DNA of 2,827 nt, from the sequence record FN394991.1; one strand, given 5' to 3'. The notes beneath the pieces are model-generated. The model was given only the letters and a program-made list of their open reading frames with translations, was not told where the DNA came from and made no database searches. Below, piece after piece: positions 1-2,827 of this stretch (its first letter is position 1; each line of letters starts with the position of its first letter). The DNA comes from Enterobacteria phage CUS-3. A program made the position numbers and the translations under genes.

Positions 1-438
1 ATGGCGCGCCCAACGAAGTATCAAGAGGCGTATGCCGAACAGGCACGCAAACTGTGCTTGCTGGGCTATACAGACGCCGAACTCGCGGACTTCTTTGAAG
101 TTAGCGAGGCAACAATCAACAATTGGAAATTGGAATATCCGGAGTTTTTAGAGTCCATAAAAAAGGGTAAGGCAGTCGCTGATGCAGAAGTTAGTGATCG
201 TCTTTATCAACGCGCTATGGGCTTCGTGGCTCCAGACATCGATATTCGTGTTATTGAAAACAGAATTGTCGAAACTCCTCTTGAGAAGTATTACCCGCCT
301 GATACAACCGCTGCCATTTTCTGGCTTAAGAACCGACAGAAGGATAAATGGCGCGACAAGGTTGATCACGAGCTAACAGGCAAAGACGGCGGCGCAATCC
401 AGATTGAAACATCACCGATGAGCACTCTGTTCGGAAAA
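1..438 (+). CDS. Phage terminase small subunit-like protein with N-terminal HTH DNA-binding domain; 3' end unresolved (runs into N-run 439-538; candidate stop TGA 541-543 only if gap length is exact)
   Basis: Seen: ATG at 1, frame 1 open for 146 codons with no stop before the N-run; frames 2 and 3 have early stops here (e.g. TAG at 146-148 in frame 2), so frame 1 is the coding frame. Translation MARPTKYQEAYAEQARKLCLLGYTDAELADFFEVSEATINNWKLEYPEF... has the R-P-T/S-x-Y start, a helix-turn-helix-like stretch (about nt 52-126) and a basic C-terminal part (FWLKNRQKDKWRDK). Recalled from memory, not searched: this matches the architecture of Sf6-type terminase small subunits. GC about 57% in the first 60 nt. 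Confidence 0.55.
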
Positions 439-538
439 NNNNNNNNNNNNNNNNNNNNNNNNNNNNNNNNNNNNNNNNNNNNNNNNNNNNNNNNNNNNNN
501 NNNNNNNNNNNNNNNNNNNNNNNNNNNNNNNNNNNNNN

Positions 539-1762
539 TCTGAGCCATGTGTAAAATATTATGATGGCATTCTGTATCTGACGACCAGGGGGACATTAAG
601 TACTCAACCCGGTAGTTCATTGCACAGAAGCTCTGATTTAGGTACATCATGGAATTCTCTTCGCTTCCCAAATAATGTTCATCACTCAAACCTTCCTTTT
701 GCCAAAGTTGGCGATGAGCTGGTTATTTTTGGCAGTGAGCGCGCATTTGGTGAGTGGGAAGGAGGAGAACCTGATAACCGTTATGCAGGAAATTATCCAA
801 GAACATTTATGACCAGAGTTAACGTCAATGAGTGGAGTCTGGATAATGTAGAGTGGGTTAATGTTACTGATCAGATTTATCAGGGCGGAATAGTTAACTC
901 TGCGGTTGGTGTTGGTTCAGTTTGTATCAAAGACAACTGGCTGTACTACATTTTCGGTGGGGAAGATTTTCTAAACCCATGGAGCATAGGGGATAACAAC
1001 AGAAAATATCCTTATGTTCACGATGGTCACNNNNNNNNNNNNNNNNNNNNNNNNNNNNNNNNNNNNNNNNNNNNNNNNNNNNNNNNNNNNNNNNNNNNNN
1101 NNNNNNNNNNNNNNNNNNNNNNNNNNNNNNNNNNNNNNNNNNNNNNNNNNNNNNNNNNNNNNNNNNNNNNNNNNNNNNNNNNNNNNNNNNNNNNNNNNNN
1201 NNNNNNNNNNNNNNNNNNNNNNNNNNNNNNNNNNNNNNNNNNNNNNNNNNNNNNNNNNNNNNNNNNNNNNNNNNNNNNNNNNNNNNNNNNNNNNNNNNNN
1301 NNNNNNNNNNNNNNNNNNNNNAGCGGCGGTGAAACAACGTCTTCAGCAGATGGTGCAATGATAACGTTGCATGGTTCCAGAAGCAGTACTCCACGTCGCG
1401 CGGTATATAACGCACTCGAACATCTTTTTGAGAACGGAGATGTTAAACCTTATCTTGATAATGTAAATGCTCTTGGTGGTCCGGGAAACAGGTTCTCGAT
1501 AGTTTATCTTGGCTCCAATCCTGTGGTTACCAGTGACGGAACATTAAAGACAGAGCCGGTCTCTCCTGACGAAGCATTGCTGGATGCCTGGGGTGACGTC
1601 AGGTATATCTCTTATAAATGGCTGAACGCTGTCGCTATAAAGGGGGAAGAAGGGGCGAGGATACATCATGGTGTAATCGCGCAGCAACTTCGTGATGTTC
1701 TTATTTCTCACGGACTCATGGAAGAAGAAAGCACAACATGCTGCTATGCCTTTCTTTGCTAT
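539..1762 (+). CDS. Endosialidase (endo-N-acetylneuraminidase) tailspike protein, partial: catalytic beta-propeller region plus C-terminal region; interrupted by N-run 1031-1321; true start and stop not visible
   Basis: Seen: frame 2 is open with no stop across 539-1030 (164 codons) and 1322-1762 (147 codons); the 291-nt N-run between them is a multiple of 3, so phase is preserved. The first piece carries an Asp-box S-S-D-L-G-T-S-W at 629-652; its translation ...GSERAFGEWEGGEPDNRYAGNYPRTFMTRVNVNEWSLDNVEWVNV...CIKDNWLYYIFGGEDF... is beta-rich and propeller-like. The second piece contains T-S-D-G-T-L-K with Ser at 1532-1534 and Lys at 1547-1549. Recalled: similarity to K1-phage endosialidases (K1F endoNF, CUS-3 tailspike). 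This ORF is absent from the supplied track, probably because no in-window stop terminates it. Confidence 0.7.
629..652 (+). other. Asp-box motif (S-x-D-x-G-x-T/S-W) of a sialidase beta-propeller
   Basis: Seen: codons agc tct gat tta ggt aca tca tgg = S S D L G T S W in the tailspike frame. Established: Asp-boxes are the hallmark repeat of sialidase propeller blades. Confidence 0.6.
1532..1762 (+). other. Start of C-terminal intramolecular chaperone / autoproteolysis domain (peptidase S74-like) of the tailspike; cleavage Ser 1532-1534, catalytic Lys 1547-1549; domain continues into the N-run
   Basis: Seen: S-D-G-T-L-K with Ser and Lys five residues apart, followed by ...RYISYKWLNAVAIKGEEGARIHHGVIAQQLRDVL... 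Established: endosialidases, K5 lyase and T5 tail fibres carry a C-terminal chaperone domain released by Ser-Lys dyad autocleavage. Only about 77 residues after the Ser are visible. Confidence 0.6.
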
Positions 1763-2179
1763 NNNNNNNNNNNNNNNNNNNNNNNNNNNNNNNNNNNNNN
1801 NNNNNNNNNNNNNNNNNNNNNNNNNNNNNNNNNNNNNNNNNNNNNNNNNNNNNNNNNNNNNNNNNNNNNNNNNNNNNNNNNNNNNNNNNNNNNNNNNNNN
1901 NNNNNNNNNNNNNNNNNNNNNNNNNNNNNNNNNNNNNNNNNNNNNNNNNNNNNNNNNNNNNNNNNNNNNNNNNNNNNNNNNNNNNNNNNNNNNNNNNNNN
2001 NNNNNNNNNNNNNNNNNNNNNNNNNNNNNNNNNNNNNNNNNNNNNNNNNNNNNNNNNNNNNNNNNNNNNNNNNNNNNNNNNNNNNNNNNNNNNNNNNNNN
2101 NNNNNNNNNNNNNNNNNNNNNNNNNNNNNNNNNNNNNNNNNNNNNNNNNNNNNNNNNNNNNNNNNNNNNNNNNNNNNNN

Positions 2180-2827
2180 ATGTCGTTTTCCGTTGATGAT
2201 AATGGGTCAGGTAATATTTTTGTATGTGGAGATCTTGTAAATAGCAAAGAGAATAAAGTTCAGTTCAATGGAAACAATAACAAACTTATTATAGAAGATG
2301 ATGTTGAGTGTCGATGGCTTACCGTAATATTTAGGGGTGATAATAATTACGTAAGAATACATAAAAACAGTAAGATTAAAGGTGATATTGTCGCAACAAA
2401 AGGTTCAAAAGTTATTATCGGTAGAAGAACGACAATAGGTGCAGGTTTTGAAGTCGTCACTGATAAGTGCAATGTTACAATTGGCCATGACTGCATGATA
2501 GCAAGAGATGTTATTTTGCGTGCATCAGATGGGCATCCTATATTTGATATTCATAGCAAAAAAAGGATTAATTGGGCAAAAGATATCATTATATCTAGTT
2601 ACGTATGGGTAGGGAGAAATGTCTCTATAATGAAAGGGGTATCTGTTGGAAGCGGATCTGTCATTGGGTATGGGAGTATTGTAACTAAAGATGTGCCATC
2701 TATGTGTGCAGCAGCCGGTAATCCAGCAAAAATAATAAAAAGAAATATAATATGGGCAAGAACGGATAAAGCGGAGCTAATTAGTGATGACAAGAGATGC
2801 TCCAGCTATCATGCGAAGCTCACGCAA
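2180..2827 (+). CDS. neuO: Polysialic acid O-acetyltransferase NeuO-like (hexapeptide-repeat acetyltransferase); 5' end probably lies in masked region 1763-2179; 3' end runs off the window
   Basis: Seen: frame 2 open for 216 codons from ATG 2180 to the window end with no stop. Translation MSFSVDDNGSGNIFVCGDLVNSKENKVQFNGNNNKLIIEDD...IGRRTTIGAGFEVV...VTIGHDCMIARDVILRASDGHPIFD...VWVGRNVSIMKGVSVGSGSVIGYGSIVTKDVP...GNPAKIIK shows repeated [LIV]-G-x4 hexapeptides (about 2414-2700) and a D-G-H-P motif (His codon 2534-2536) typical of the LacA/Maa/NodL O-acetyltransferase family. Recalled: close match to NeuO of prophage CUS-3. GC roughly 25-37% in sampled 60-nt lines versus about 57% at the window start. 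Confidence 0.75.
   Translation, partial: MSFSVDDNGSGNIFVCGDLVNSKENKVQFNGNNNKLIIEDDVECRWLTVIFRGDNNYVRIHKNSKIKGDIVATKGSKVIIGRRTTIGAGFEVVTDKCNVTIGHDCMIARDVILRASDGHPIFDIHSKKRINWAKDIIISSYVWVGRNVSIMKGVSVGSGSVIGYGSIVTKDVPSMCAAAGNPAKIIKRNIIWARTDKAELISDDKRCSSYHAKLTQ

What the first reader, a model, noticed from the sequence alone, without database searches (positions are those of the whole stretch)
1322..2827. Receptor-degrading tailspike immediately followed by a receptor-modifying acetyltransferase (conversion module)
The tailspike cleaves polysialic acid capsule; the adjacent gene O-acetylates the same polymer. This parallels Sf6 tailspike-oac and P22 tailspike-gtr and is the arrangement described for CUS-3. 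The acetyltransferase is far more AT-rich than the tailspike or TerS islands (sampled 60-nt lines: about 25-37% GC versus about 48% and 57%), consistent with a horizontally acquired moron. It is a known system type, but the specific allele and its coupling to a possibly truncated tailspike are worth recording.
Basis: partly seen in the sequence, partly recalled or inferred. Interest (0 to 1): 0.5.

Follow-up and report, generated by a model that had tools for sequence, protein, structure and literature searches.

The report
CUS-3 prophage tailspike plus NeuO acetyltransferase
This is the already well-studied pair of genes from the E. coli K1 prophage CUS-3, a tailspike that cuts the polysialic-acid capsule followed by NeuO, which O-acetylates that capsule. 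The apparent tailspike truncation comes only from the window being a stitched database record of four separately sequenced gene pieces.

Summary
The window is not contiguous DNA. It has the exact layout of 18 GenBank records, [quoted passage not shown]. These hold four sequenced pieces joined by runs of 100, 291 and 417 N.

Positions 1322-1762 are the stalk end and the start of the self-cleaving chaperone domain of the endosialidase tailspike SiaK1. Positions 2180-2827 are NeuO. It differs by one residue over 215 aligned from crystallised NeuO (PDB 3JQY, E 1.6e-142), far above generic maltose or galactoside acetyltransferases (about 1e-19).

In complete CUS-3 the two genes really are neighbours, 153 bp apart, with neuO lying between the tailspike and int/att.

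Three corrections apply:
- The tailspike is not truncated. It is only partly sequenced.
- The neuO "allele" has had its phase-variation repeat (AAGACTC)n removed, so ATG is joined straight to the enzyme body.
- The GC contrast is real but smaller than stated: 36% against 44% and 48%.

A neuO-less sister prophage shows neuO to be a discrete cassette of about 850 bp.

Everything central here is published. Interest is low.

The parts
1..438 (+). Partial small terminase subunit gene (first 146 codons). It is context only and not part of the tailspike-neuO module.
   Evidence: Sibling record FN394998 annotates this piece as 'phage terminase small subunit'. There is a weak Pfam Terminase_5 hit. In CUS-3 this piece lies 18,254 bp from the tailspike piece (coordinates). 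The allele is only 93.8% identical to FN394998 (27 differences, 21 of them in 69-150). It is 99.3% identical to prophages of other E. coli genomes.
439..538 (.). Run of 100 N. This is a conventional spacer of arbitrary length standing for about 18.25 kb of prophage (terL, portal, coat, injection proteins, immI region, and the 5' half of siaK1).
   Evidence: The 17 sibling records listed all have the same total length of 2827, and FN394998 has the same piece coordinates.
539..1030 (+). siaK1 piece 1: catalytic beta-propeller of the endosialidase tailspike, codons 487-650 of 981.
   Evidence: Pfam End_beta_propel E 3.4e-104. PDB endosialidases 4HIZ (1.8e-83) and 1V0E endoNF (4.7e-80), aligned without gaps. 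It has 3 nucleotide differences from CUS-3 RS218. It is in the same reading frame as piece 2 (539 and 1322 are both 2 mod 3, and the 291-N gap is 97 codons).
1031..1321 (.). Run of 291 N, equal to the true length of the unsequenced siaK1 stretch between the two amplicons.
   Evidence: In CUS-3 the gap between the matching positions is exactly 291 nt (start coordinates 36195 and 36978).
1322..1531 (+). siaK1 piece 2a: C-terminal end of the stalk (tail-spike) domain, codons 748-817.
   Evidence: Pfam End_tail_spike E 6.4e-33 on residues 1-70. It aligns to the last 69 residues of mature endoNF chains 1V0E/3GVK.
1532..1762 (+). siaK1 piece 2b: first 77 codons of the C-terminal intramolecular chaperone (peptidase S74) domain. 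It begins with the Ser (1532-1534) and Lys (1547-1549) of the self-cleavage motif S-D-G-T-L-K.
   Evidence: Pfam Peptidase_S74 E 1.7e-12 on residues 71-132. PDB 3GW6 E 3.2e-60. The Ser aligns with the Ala of that chain in 'VTANGERK', and mature endoNF chains end one residue before it.
1763..2179 (.). Run of 417 N, equal to the true length in CUS-3. By projection from CUS-3 it hides the last 88 codons of siaK1 (stop at 2024-2026) and the 153-bp AT-rich intergenic region (2027-2179). That region carries a promoter-like site (-35 ATGACA at about 2135-2140, extended -10 TAAAAT at about 2158-2163) and the left edge of the neuO cassette (about 2140/2141).
   Evidence: CUS-3 sequence and coordinates. 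Promoter scan: 10 of 12 matches with TG before the -10. Cassette edge from the comparison with neuO-less strain AZ159. All of this is inferred from the reference and is not visible in the window.
2180..2182 (+). neuO start codon. The 2182/2183 junction is where the (AAGACTC)n phase-variation tract, the poly-psi VNTR, has been taken out.
   Evidence: Window: ATG|TCGTTTTCC. CUS-3 RS218: ATG-TT-(AAGACTC)19-GTTTTCC. CE10: ATG-TC-(AAGACTC)18-GTTTTCC. The window holds zero copies of AAGACTC. Sibling record FN394998 has the same join.
2183..2827 (+). neuO body: left-handed beta-helix (hexapeptide-repeat) polysialic-acid O-acetyltransferase. It is complete up to the last sense codon; the stop codon lies just beyond the window.
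   Evidence: PDB 3JQY E 1.6e-142 with one difference, Ile13 for Val. Pfam Hexapep E 4e-11. His147, Arg137 and the seven basic platform residues named in PMC3046976 are all present at the offset positions. GC 36.3%, GC3 27.8%.

Best explanation
The window is a typing record for prophage CUS-3 of E. coli K1, not a contiguous stretch. It holds four separately sequenced pieces (terS, two internal siaK1 pieces, neuO) joined by N spacers, and the neuO repeat tract has been edited out.

The biology behind 1322-2827 is the known CUS-3 lysogenic-conversion arrangement.

- SiaK1 is the trimeric endosialidase tailspike. It binds and cleaves the alpha-2,8 polysialic-acid K1 capsule, which is the phage receptor. 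Its C-terminal S74 chaperone domain helps the trimer fold and is then cut off at a Ser-Lys site.
- In native DNA, neuO starts 153 bp downstream of siaK1, just before int/att. It is a discrete AT-rich cassette with its own promoter-like site.
- NeuO is an acetyl-CoA-dependent hexapeptide-repeat acyltransferase that O-acetylates polysialic acid at O7/O9.
- In native copies a 5' (AAGACTC)n tract changes length by slippage, so the enzyme is made only when n is a multiple of three. Longer tracts give a more efficient enzyme.
- Acetylation of the receptor lowers killing by lytic K1 phages and changes interactions with the host.

Shown here: the identity of both genes, their native adjacency, the composite nature of the record, the removed repeat tract, the GC trough and the cassette boundaries. 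Taken from the literature: the enzyme chemistry, phase variation and phage protection.
For: Record identity:
- The 17 CUS-3 records listed (16 from the FN394986-FN395002 series plus FN394218) all have the same 2827-nt length. FN394998 annotates CDS pieces at the same coordinates as the four sequenced pieces of the window.
- The 291-N and 417-N runs equal the true CUS-3 distances once the 133-nt repeat tract is left out.

NeuO:
- PDB 3JQY E 1.6e-142, with all residues but one identical over 215 aligned.
- Catalytic His and Arg and the basic platform residues are conserved (numbering from PMC3046976).

Tailspike:
- Pfam End_beta_propel 3e-104, End_tail_spike 6e-33, Peptidase_S74 2e-12.
- PDB endosialidases.

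Native arrangement:
- The order is siaK1, poly-psi repeat/neuO, int, attL in CP000711.
- 148 of 196 matching complete genomes carry the tailspike 3' end and neuO in one place.

Repeat tract:
- 19 perfect copies in RS218.
- 5-52 copies in 39 sampled genomes, with length differences that are exact multiples of 7 in 39 of 40, and 12 of 39 in frame.
- This agrees with 3-53 copies and 34% phase-ON in PMC13001214.

Moron character:
- GC trough.
- Second-lowest GC and lowest GC3 among the CUS-3 coding regions compared.
- A precise 850-bp presence/absence difference against the neuO-less prophage of strain AZ159 at the same ybhB/bio site as CE10.
- A promoter-like site 17 nt upstream of the ATG.

Function from the literature:
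- PMC3046976.
- PMC9659370: a neuO deletion mutant gave larger K1-phage plaques and lysed completely.
- PMC13001214.
Against: - The exact source record was not found. The only accession missing from the listed FN394986-FN395002 series, FN394991, is not in the collection. The best sibling record is only 98.3% identical, because of the divergent terS piece.
- The paper that I recall as describing these records (Mordhorst et al. 2009) and the two primary CUS-3/neuO papers (Deszo 2005, King 2007) are not held. That the depositors removed the repeat tract on purpose is therefore an inference from the identical length of all sibling records.
- The promoter is only a consensus match. The region gave 6 such sites against 5.3 expected.
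- No tool here can test enzyme activity or phage protection for this allele.
Confidence: 0.96

Rival explanations
1. The window is real contiguous DNA from a decayed CUS-3 remnant. In it a deletion has fused terS to the middle of the tailspike gene, leaving a truncated tailspike next to neuO.
For: Read literally, the window goes from terS codon 146 to siaK1 codon 487 across only 100 unknown bases. Truncated-tailspike-plus-neuO remnants do exist in nature. In APEC E19019 an IS3 element leaves only a 207-nt 3' remnant of the tailspike next to an intact neuO-intS-argW end. CE10 has a frameshifted tailspike.
Against: The 17 sibling records listed have the same length (2827), and FN394998 has the same piece coordinates and is titled 'partial ... 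terminase gene, siaK1 gene and neuO gene' with each CDS flagged incomplete. 100 N is the conventional unknown-length spacer, whereas the other two N runs equal true distances. No complete E. coli genome has terS and siaK1 joined: no place covers at least 80% of the window, and the best places cover only 539-2827.
Confidence: 0.02
2. The strain carries a natural neuO allele with zero heptanucleotide repeats. Such an allele would be always in frame, locked ON and of low catalytic efficiency, rather than an edited sequence.
For: ATG joined to TCGTTTTCC keeps the frame. PMC3046976 states that the poly-psi extension is not required for activity.
Against: FN394998 has the same join, and the 17 sibling records listed, from different strains, have the same length. 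All 39 sampled complete genomes have 5-52 copies. Published natural ranges are 2-93 (PMC3046976) and 3-53 (PMC13001214). Identical zero-copy alleles in every typed strain are implausible for a tract that changes length at high frequency.
Confidence: 0.03
3. The acetyltransferase is a generic sugar (maltose/galactoside-type) acetyltransferase unrelated to capsule modification, and its position next to the tailspike is fortuitous.
For: It belongs to the same hexapeptide-repeat superfamily. Galactoside and maltose O-acetyltransferases are detectable hits (1e-15 to 1e-19).
Against: One residue differs from crystallised NeuO over 215 aligned (E 1.6e-142). The second-best hit is another polysialic/sialic-acid capsule O-acetyltransferase, OatWY (3e-31). 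The generic enzymes are more than 120 orders of magnitude weaker. The adjacency recurs in 148 complete genomes.
Confidence: 0.005
4. The low GC of neuO reflects only local composition at the prophage end, or protein constraints, and not foreign origin.
For: The whole stretch from the siaK1 stop to the int 3' flank is at 34-37% GC, including non-coding DNA outside the cassette. Other small CUS-3 genes are also AT-rich: hkcB 33%, and ECRS218_0047 and ECRS218_0007 at 38-39%.
Against: GC3 is 27%, the lowest of all CUS-3 coding regions compared (z = -2.65). A sister prophage at the same chromosomal site lacks exactly the neuO cassette. The same tailspike 3' half occurs in Uetakevirus phages and prophages followed by lysis genes and no neuO.
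Confidence: 0.1

Closest known systems
Prophage CUS-3 of E. coli K1 RS218 (CP000711): siaK1 endosialidase tailspike and neuO
   Same: It is the same element. The tailspike pieces differ at 3 + 3 nucleotides and the neuO body at 2 nucleotides (1 amino acid). Gene order in the complete phage is siaK1, 153 bp, neuO, int, attL. The sibling records are themselves labelled 'phage CUS-3'.
   Different: The window is a concatenated partial record. The repeat tract (19 copies in RS218) is absent. The terS piece is a different allele (29 differences in 438 nt). There is one unusual Cys-for-Arg change near the end of the second tailspike amplicon (window 1742).
NeuO crystal structure, PDB 3JQY (Schulz et al. 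2011, PMC3046976)
   Same: All but one of the 215 aligned residues are identical, and the catalytic His147 and Arg137 and the polySia-binding basic residues are all present.
   Different: The crystallised protein carries four RLKTQDS heptads (12 repeats), while the window encodes none. Ile replaces Val at window residue 13.
Neisseria meningitidis W/Y capsule O-acetyltransferase OatWY (PDB 2WLC)
   Same: Next-closest solved relative (E 3e-31). It has the same left-handed beta-helix fold and active-site layout according to PMC3046976.
   Different: It is far more distant than NeuO, has a different acceptor polymer, and is not described as phage-borne or as carrying a heptad extension in the paper read.
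Endosialidases of lytic K1 phages (endoNF of K1F, PDB 1V0E/3GVK/3GW6; phi92 endosialidase 4HIZ)
   Same: They share the catalytic beta-propeller, stalk and C-terminal S74 chaperone domains. By the gapless alignment to 1V0E, window residues E2, R17 and R68 of piece 1 fall on endoNF Glu581, Arg596 and Arg647. I recall these as the proposed catalytic residues; this is my own knowledge, and it assumes the chain starts at residue 245.
   Different: DNA identity to K1F is only about 72% over 333 nt. Those phages are lytic, have different N-terminal adaptor domains, and carry no neuO.
P22-like conversion modules next to the tailspike: Sf6 tailspike-oac and P22 tailspike-gtrABC (own knowledge, not tested here)
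   Same: The logic and position are the same. A gene that chemically modifies the surface polysaccharide recognised and cleaved by the phage's own tailspike sits between the tailspike gene and int/att at the prophage end.
   Different: Oac and GtrABC are integral membrane proteins acting on O-antigen. NeuO is a soluble cytoplasmic hexapeptide-repeat enzyme acting on capsule, and it has its own translational phase switch.

Membership tests
NeuO (polysialic-acid-specific O-acetyltransferase of CUS-3) | Near-identity to experimentally characterised NeuO over the catalytic body | tested here: met
   PDB 3JQY E 1.6e-142, residues 2-216 aligned without gaps, with one conservative difference.
NeuO (polysialic-acid-specific O-acetyltransferase of CUS-3) | Hexapeptide-repeat / left-handed beta-helix acyltransferase fold signature | tested here: met
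   Pfam Hexapep PF00132, 42.5 bits against a cut-off of 27.
NeuO (polysialic-acid-specific O-acetyltransferase of CUS-3) | Catalytic His147 and Arg137 and the basic polySia platform (Arg73, Lys95, Arg111, Arg174, Arg222, Lys233, Arg234; numbering of the +12-repeat variant) | tested here: met
   All nine residues are present at the positions offset by 28. The residue list comes from PMC3046976.
NeuO (polysialic-acid-specific O-acetyltransferase of CUS-3) | 5' (AAGACTC)n variable-number repeat two nucleotides after the start codon (poly-psi phase switch) | tested here: inconclusive
   There are zero copies in the window. The sibling records share the same length, and FN394998 has the same repeat-free join, while native loci have 5-52 copies. 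The tract was evidently removed from the record, so the strain's true copy number and phase state cannot be read from the window.
NeuO (polysialic-acid-specific O-acetyltransferase of CUS-3) | Acetyl-CoA-dependent O-acetylation of alpha-2,8 polysialic acid of at least 14 residues | not testable with these tools
   This is a biochemical property. It is reported for NeuO in PMC3046976 and PMC13001214.
Phage endosialidase tailspike (endo-N-acetylneuraminidase) | Catalytic six-bladed beta-propeller domain | tested here: met
   Pfam End_beta_propel E 3.4e-104, profile positions 192-355 of 367. PDB 4HIZ and 1V0E. Only part of the domain is in the window.
Phage endosialidase tailspike (endo-N-acetylneuraminidase) | C-terminal stalk (tail-spike) domain | tested here: met
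   Pfam End_tail_spike E 6.4e-33.
Phage endosialidase tailspike (endo-N-acetylneuraminidase) | C-terminal intramolecular chaperone (peptidase S74) with the Ser...Lys self-cleavage motif | tested here: met
   Pfam Peptidase_S74 E 1.7e-12. PDB 3GW6 E 3.2e-60, with the window Ser aligned to the Ala of that chain and a Lys five residues later.
Phage endosialidase tailspike (endo-N-acetylneuraminidase) | Complete, uninterrupted gene with a P22-type N-terminal head-binding part | not testable with these tools
   Codons 1-486, 651-747 and 895-981 are not in the window. The reference CUS-3 gene is intact at 2946 nt. The two pieces present are in the same frame.
Lysogenic-conversion moron of P22-like prophages (receptor-modifying gene beside the tailspike) | Located between the tailspike gene and int/att at the prophage end | tested here: met
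   CP000711 has the order siaK1, neuO repeat, int, attL. E19019 has neuO, intS, tRNA-Arg. CE10 has neuO followed by a short int-like remnant and ybhB/bioA.
Lysogenic-conversion moron of P22-like prophages (receptor-modifying gene beside the tailspike) | Discrete insertion with deviant composition, present or absent between otherwise collinear phages | tested here: met
   There is an 850-bp presence/absence difference against the AZ159 prophage. Tailspike-only matches end exactly at that edge (query 819). GC is 36% against a 47% phage mean.
Lysogenic-conversion moron of P22-like prophages (receptor-modifying gene beside the tailspike) | Own promoter active in the lysogen | tested here: inconclusive
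   A good consensus match (ATGACA, 17 nt spacer, TG-TAAAAT) lies 17 nt before the ATG. However, the number of such sites in the region is no more than chance (6 against 5.3). The scan found no terminator-like site between siaK1 and neuO. PMC9659370 reports DsdC-dependent transcription.
Lysogenic-conversion moron of P22-like prophages (receptor-modifying gene beside the tailspike) | The modification reduces infection by phages that use the same receptor | not testable with these tools
   Reported for lytic K1 phage in PMC9659370 and PMC13001214. It is not shown for CUS-3 itself in the papers I could read.

The most novel reading that the evidence does not exclude
The most novel reading that is not excluded concerns the cassette and how it moves, not the gene pair.

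- neuO is a self-contained cassette of about 850 bp (717 bp plus repeats).
- Its left edge falls exactly after a -35-like hexamer supplied by the phage backbone, so the promoter would be a hybrid created by the insertion.
- The cassette, or the tailspike-neuO end as a unit, circulates among mosaic P22-like prophages. These have different packaging modules (this window's terS allele is 94% identical to CUS-3 and 99% to other prophages) and different integration sites (argW, ybhB/bio).
- Sister prophages at ybhB/bio and torT carry the same tailspike without neuO.

The boundaries and site diversity are observed here. Whether they are unpublished, and whether the hybrid promoter is functional, is unknown.
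Probability: 0.35. Interest if true: 0.2.

Novelty: already known. Interest (0 to 1): 0.08.

Why it matters
The tailspike-neuO pairing is a textbook-style case of a temperate phage carrying both an enzyme that degrades its receptor and an enzyme that modifies that receptor. It has consequences for K1 E. coli virulence, immune evasion and resistance to therapeutic K1 phages. All of that is already established for CUS-3.

For this scan the useful results are negative:
- The window is a concatenated typing record.
- Its gene adjacencies and apparent truncations must not be read as genome structure.
- The neuO 5' end in it is edited, so it says nothing about phase state.

Tried and rejected
- **Real deletion fusing terS to mid-tailspike:** rejected because the sibling records share the same length, FN394998 has the same piece coordinates and is annotated as partial genes, and no genome has that junction.
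- **Natural zero-repeat neuO allele:** rejected as unlikely.
- **Generic acetyltransferase:** rejected.
- **Looking for the exact source record:** FN394991, the only accession missing from the listed series, is not in the collection.
- **Reading the primary CUS-3/neuO papers** (King 2007, PMC1951898; Deszo 2005, PMC555961): neither is held. A text search for the typing paper found nothing relevant.
- **BLAST of CE10 against AZ159 in Python:** this failed because several loci were not copied to the script machine. I used DNA alignment and direct reading instead.
- **Rfam, tRNA and repeat scans of the window:** these found nothing else.
Full report
**What the window is.** The 2827-nt window consists of four readable pieces (1-438, 539-1030, 1322-1762, 2180-2827). 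They are separated by runs of 100, 291 and 417 N. A megablast against the phage collection returned 17 GenBank records of exactly 2827 nt: 16 from the FN394986-FN395002 series plus FN394218. FN394998 is titled 'Enterobacteria phage CUS-3 partial proviral terminase gene, siaK1 gene and neuO gene, genotype GT_14'. It annotates four incomplete CDS at exactly the coordinates of the window's four pieces. The window is therefore one more member of this typing series. It is a concatenation of separately sequenced amplicons, not a contiguous stretch of genome. The only accession missing from the listed series, FN394991, is not in the collection, so the exact record could not be confirmed.

**How the spacers relate to real DNA.** I projected the pieces on the complete CUS-3 genome of strain RS218 (CP000711).
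- The 100-N run stands for 18,254 bp. This covers terL, portal, coat, injection proteins, the immI region and the 5' half of the tailspike gene.
- The 291-N run equals the true 291-nt distance between the two siaK1 pieces.
- The 417-N run equals the true distance from the end of siaK1 piece 2 to the neuO ATG.

The window's 539-2827 span is 133 nt shorter than in CUS-3. That is exactly the 19 x 7-nt repeat tract annotated there.

**The tailspike.** The two siaK1 pieces are in the same frame.
- Piece 1 is the catalytic beta-propeller: Pfam End_beta_propel E 3.4e-104, and PDB endosialidases 4HIZ and 1V0E at about 1e-80.
- Piece 2 holds the end of the stalk domain (End_tail_spike, E 6e-33) and the first 77 codons of the C-terminal intramolecular chaperone (Peptidase_S74, E 2e-12).
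- Piece 2 aligns at E 3e-60 to PDB 3GW6. The window's Ser (1532-1534) sits on the Ala of that chain, followed five residues later by Lys. Mature endoNF chains end one residue before this Ser.

These pieces are codons 487-650 and 748-894 of a 981-codon gene that is intact in CUS-3. Nothing in the window indicates truncation. The missing parts were simply not sequenced.

**The acetyltransferase.** Window 2180-2827 translates to 216 residues without stops.
- It matches crystallised NeuO (PDB 3JQY) at E 1.6e-142, with a single Ile/Val difference over 215 aligned residues.
- The next hit is the meningococcal capsule O-acetyltransferase OatWY (3e-31).
- Generic galactoside and maltose acetyltransferases reach only 1e-15 to 1e-19.
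- The catalytic His147 and Arg137 and the seven basic residues proposed to bind polysialic acid (PMC3046976) are all present.

**The missing phase switch.** In native neuO, the ATG and two further nucleotides are followed by (AAGACTC)n. RS218 has 19 perfect copies and CE10 has 18. The window reads ATG|TCGTTTTCC and contains no copy of the heptamer. FN394998 has the same join.

In a spread sample of complete E. coli genomes, the length of this interval differed by an exact multiple of 7 in 39 of 40 cases. That gives 5-52 copies, with 12 of 39 in frame. This agrees with 3-53 copies and 34% phase-ON in 64 genomes reported by PMC13001214, and with the 2-93 range cited in PMC3046976.

The repeat-free join is therefore almost certainly an edit made for alignment. 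The 'allele' recorded in the window says nothing about the strain's phase state or heptad number.

**Is the adjacency real?** Yes, in native DNA.
- In CUS-3 the order is siaK1, a 153-bp AT-rich spacer, neuO, a hairpin, int, attL.
- I used the native stretch from siaK1 piece 2 to the neuO stop as query. Of the 196 complete E. coli genomes that matched, 148 had one place covering at least 80% of it.
- The remainder fall into informative classes, described next.

**Natural variants that delimit the module.**
- Strain AZ159 has a P22-like prophage at the ybhB/bio site with a full 2946-nt tailspike and no neuO. CE10 has neuO at the same site. The two are collinear up to ...TTTTTRATGACA. AZ159 then continues directly with CAATATTAATATAAGG..., which in CE10 and CUS-3 lies 27 nt after the neuO stop.
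- neuO is thus a discrete cassette at L002 4603-5452. It is 850 bp with 19 repeats and 717 bp without. Other tailspike-only matches end at exactly this edge (query position 819).
- The left edge falls just after the ATGACA hexamer. Together with TG-n-TAAAAT 17 nt downstream, that hexamer forms the best promoter-like site of the region.
- The same tailspike 3' half (99% identity) occurs in the Uetakevirus phage ZX5 and in a prophage of strain SCU-125. There it is followed by holin and endolysin genes and not by neuO.
- In APEC E19019 an IS3 element has removed all but 207 nt of the tailspike, while neuO, intS and tRNA-Arg remain. In CE10 the tailspike is frameshifted. Decayed tailspikes beside neuO do occur in nature, but this window is not evidence for one.

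**Composition.**
- GC is 36.3% for neuO, 42.3% and 46.9% for the tailspike pieces and 47.7% for terS. neuO GC3 is 27.8%.
N-free 60-nt lines average 36.2, 43.9 and 47.9%. The neuO difference is significant (p about 0.006-0.007).
- In the complete phage, neuO has the second-lowest GC and the lowest GC3 of the 47 coding regions compared (z = -2.5 and -2.65). Only 1.7% of 650-nt windows are as AT-rich.
- With the masked bases restored, the trough (34-37%) persists from the siaK1 stop to the int 3' flank.
- Together with the presence/absence difference, this supports the moron interpretation.

**Mechanism.**
- Shown here: the identities, the arrangement and the repeat polymorphism.
- From the literature: NeuO is a trimeric acetyl-CoA-dependent enzyme that acetylates O7/O9 of polysialic acid of at least 14 residues. 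Slipped-strand changes in the repeat tract switch translation on only when n is a multiple of 3, and efficiency rises with heptad number (PMC3046976).
- Also from the literature: deletion of neuO in CE10 enlarges K1-phage plaques and allows complete lysis, and transcription depends on DsdC (PMC9659370). A locked-ON allele increases survival against lytic K1 phage and neutrophils (PMC13001214).
- Inferred: the prophage carries the receptor-cutting enzyme for entry and a stochastic receptor-modifying enzyme that partly shields its lysogen. This is analogous to Sf6 oac and P22 gtrABC (my own knowledge). Whether acetylation hinders CUS-3's own tailspike was not addressed in the papers I could read.

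**Other checks.** No Rfam family, tRNA or further repeat was found in the window. The minus-strand ORFs are short and lie inside the coding regions.

**Verdict.** The system is already known in detail, including a crystal structure and phenotypes. Interest is low. The only mildly new observations are the exact cassette boundaries and the mosaic context of the terS allele.

Noticed in passing
window 1-438 (differences clustered at 69-150): The terS piece is a different allele from the sibling CUS-3 record FN394998 and from RS218: 27-29 differences in 438 nt, those examined being third-position and synonymous, and 21 of 27 falling within about 80 nt. It is 99.1-99.3% identical to prophages in genomes that are not among the neuO hits. 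One such genome, isolate AF14, carries this terS 20.8 kb upstream of an endosialidase tailspike with no neuO, at the torT site. Either the neuO prophage of the source strain is a packaging-module recombinant, or the primers amplified terS from a second P22-like prophage.
   Followed up: partly
window 1742 (codon 141 of piece 1322-1762): T instead of C gives Cys where CUS-3 RS218, CE10 and endoNF (PDB 3GW6) all have Arg, in the chaperone domain. The site is 20 nt from the end of the amplicon, so a read-end error is as likely as a real substitution.
   Followed up: no
L002 4603-5452 (window equivalent: about 2141, masked, to about 30 nt past the window end): Exact neuO cassette boundaries come from comparing CE10 and CUS-3 with the neuO-less prophage of strain AZ159 at the same ybhB/bio site. 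The left edge lies directly after the -35-like ATGACA, and the right edge lies 27 nt after the stop codon. Tailspike-only matches end at the same base.
   Followed up: yes
L006 3733-5204 (E. coli APEC E19019): An IS3-family element has replaced all but the last 207 nt of the tailspike gene, while neuO, intS and tRNA-Arg are kept. This is a natural 'truncated tailspike plus neuO' remnant. IS3 or IS1 insertions at this locus also appear in hits H6, H110 and H128.
   Followed up: partly
L004 1543-4489 and 4643-5419 (E. coli CE10): In CE10 the tailspike is annotated as frameshifted. neuO has 18 repeats, is in frame, and is annotated as a 258-aa acyltransferase. The prophage end abuts ybhB/bioA rather than argW.
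   Followed up: partly
L005 866-3985 (phage vB_EcoP_ZX5) and L008 1583-4702 (E. coli SCU-125): Window 539-1762, from the catalytic propeller to the chaperone start, is 99.4% identical in the Uetakevirus phage ZX5. The prophage of SCU-125 shares 99.1% identity over the last 673 nt of siaK1. In both the gene is longer (3120 nt) and is followed by holin and endolysin genes. This fits a tailspike receptor-binding module exchanged between phage lineages.
   Followed up: partly
L002 5494-5513, minus strand: The only terminator-like hairpin in the region (GCCCGT...ACGGGC followed by a T-run) is oriented for int, not for neuO. The scan found no terminator-like site between siaK1 and neuO, so late-operon read-through into neuO is possible.
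   Followed up: no
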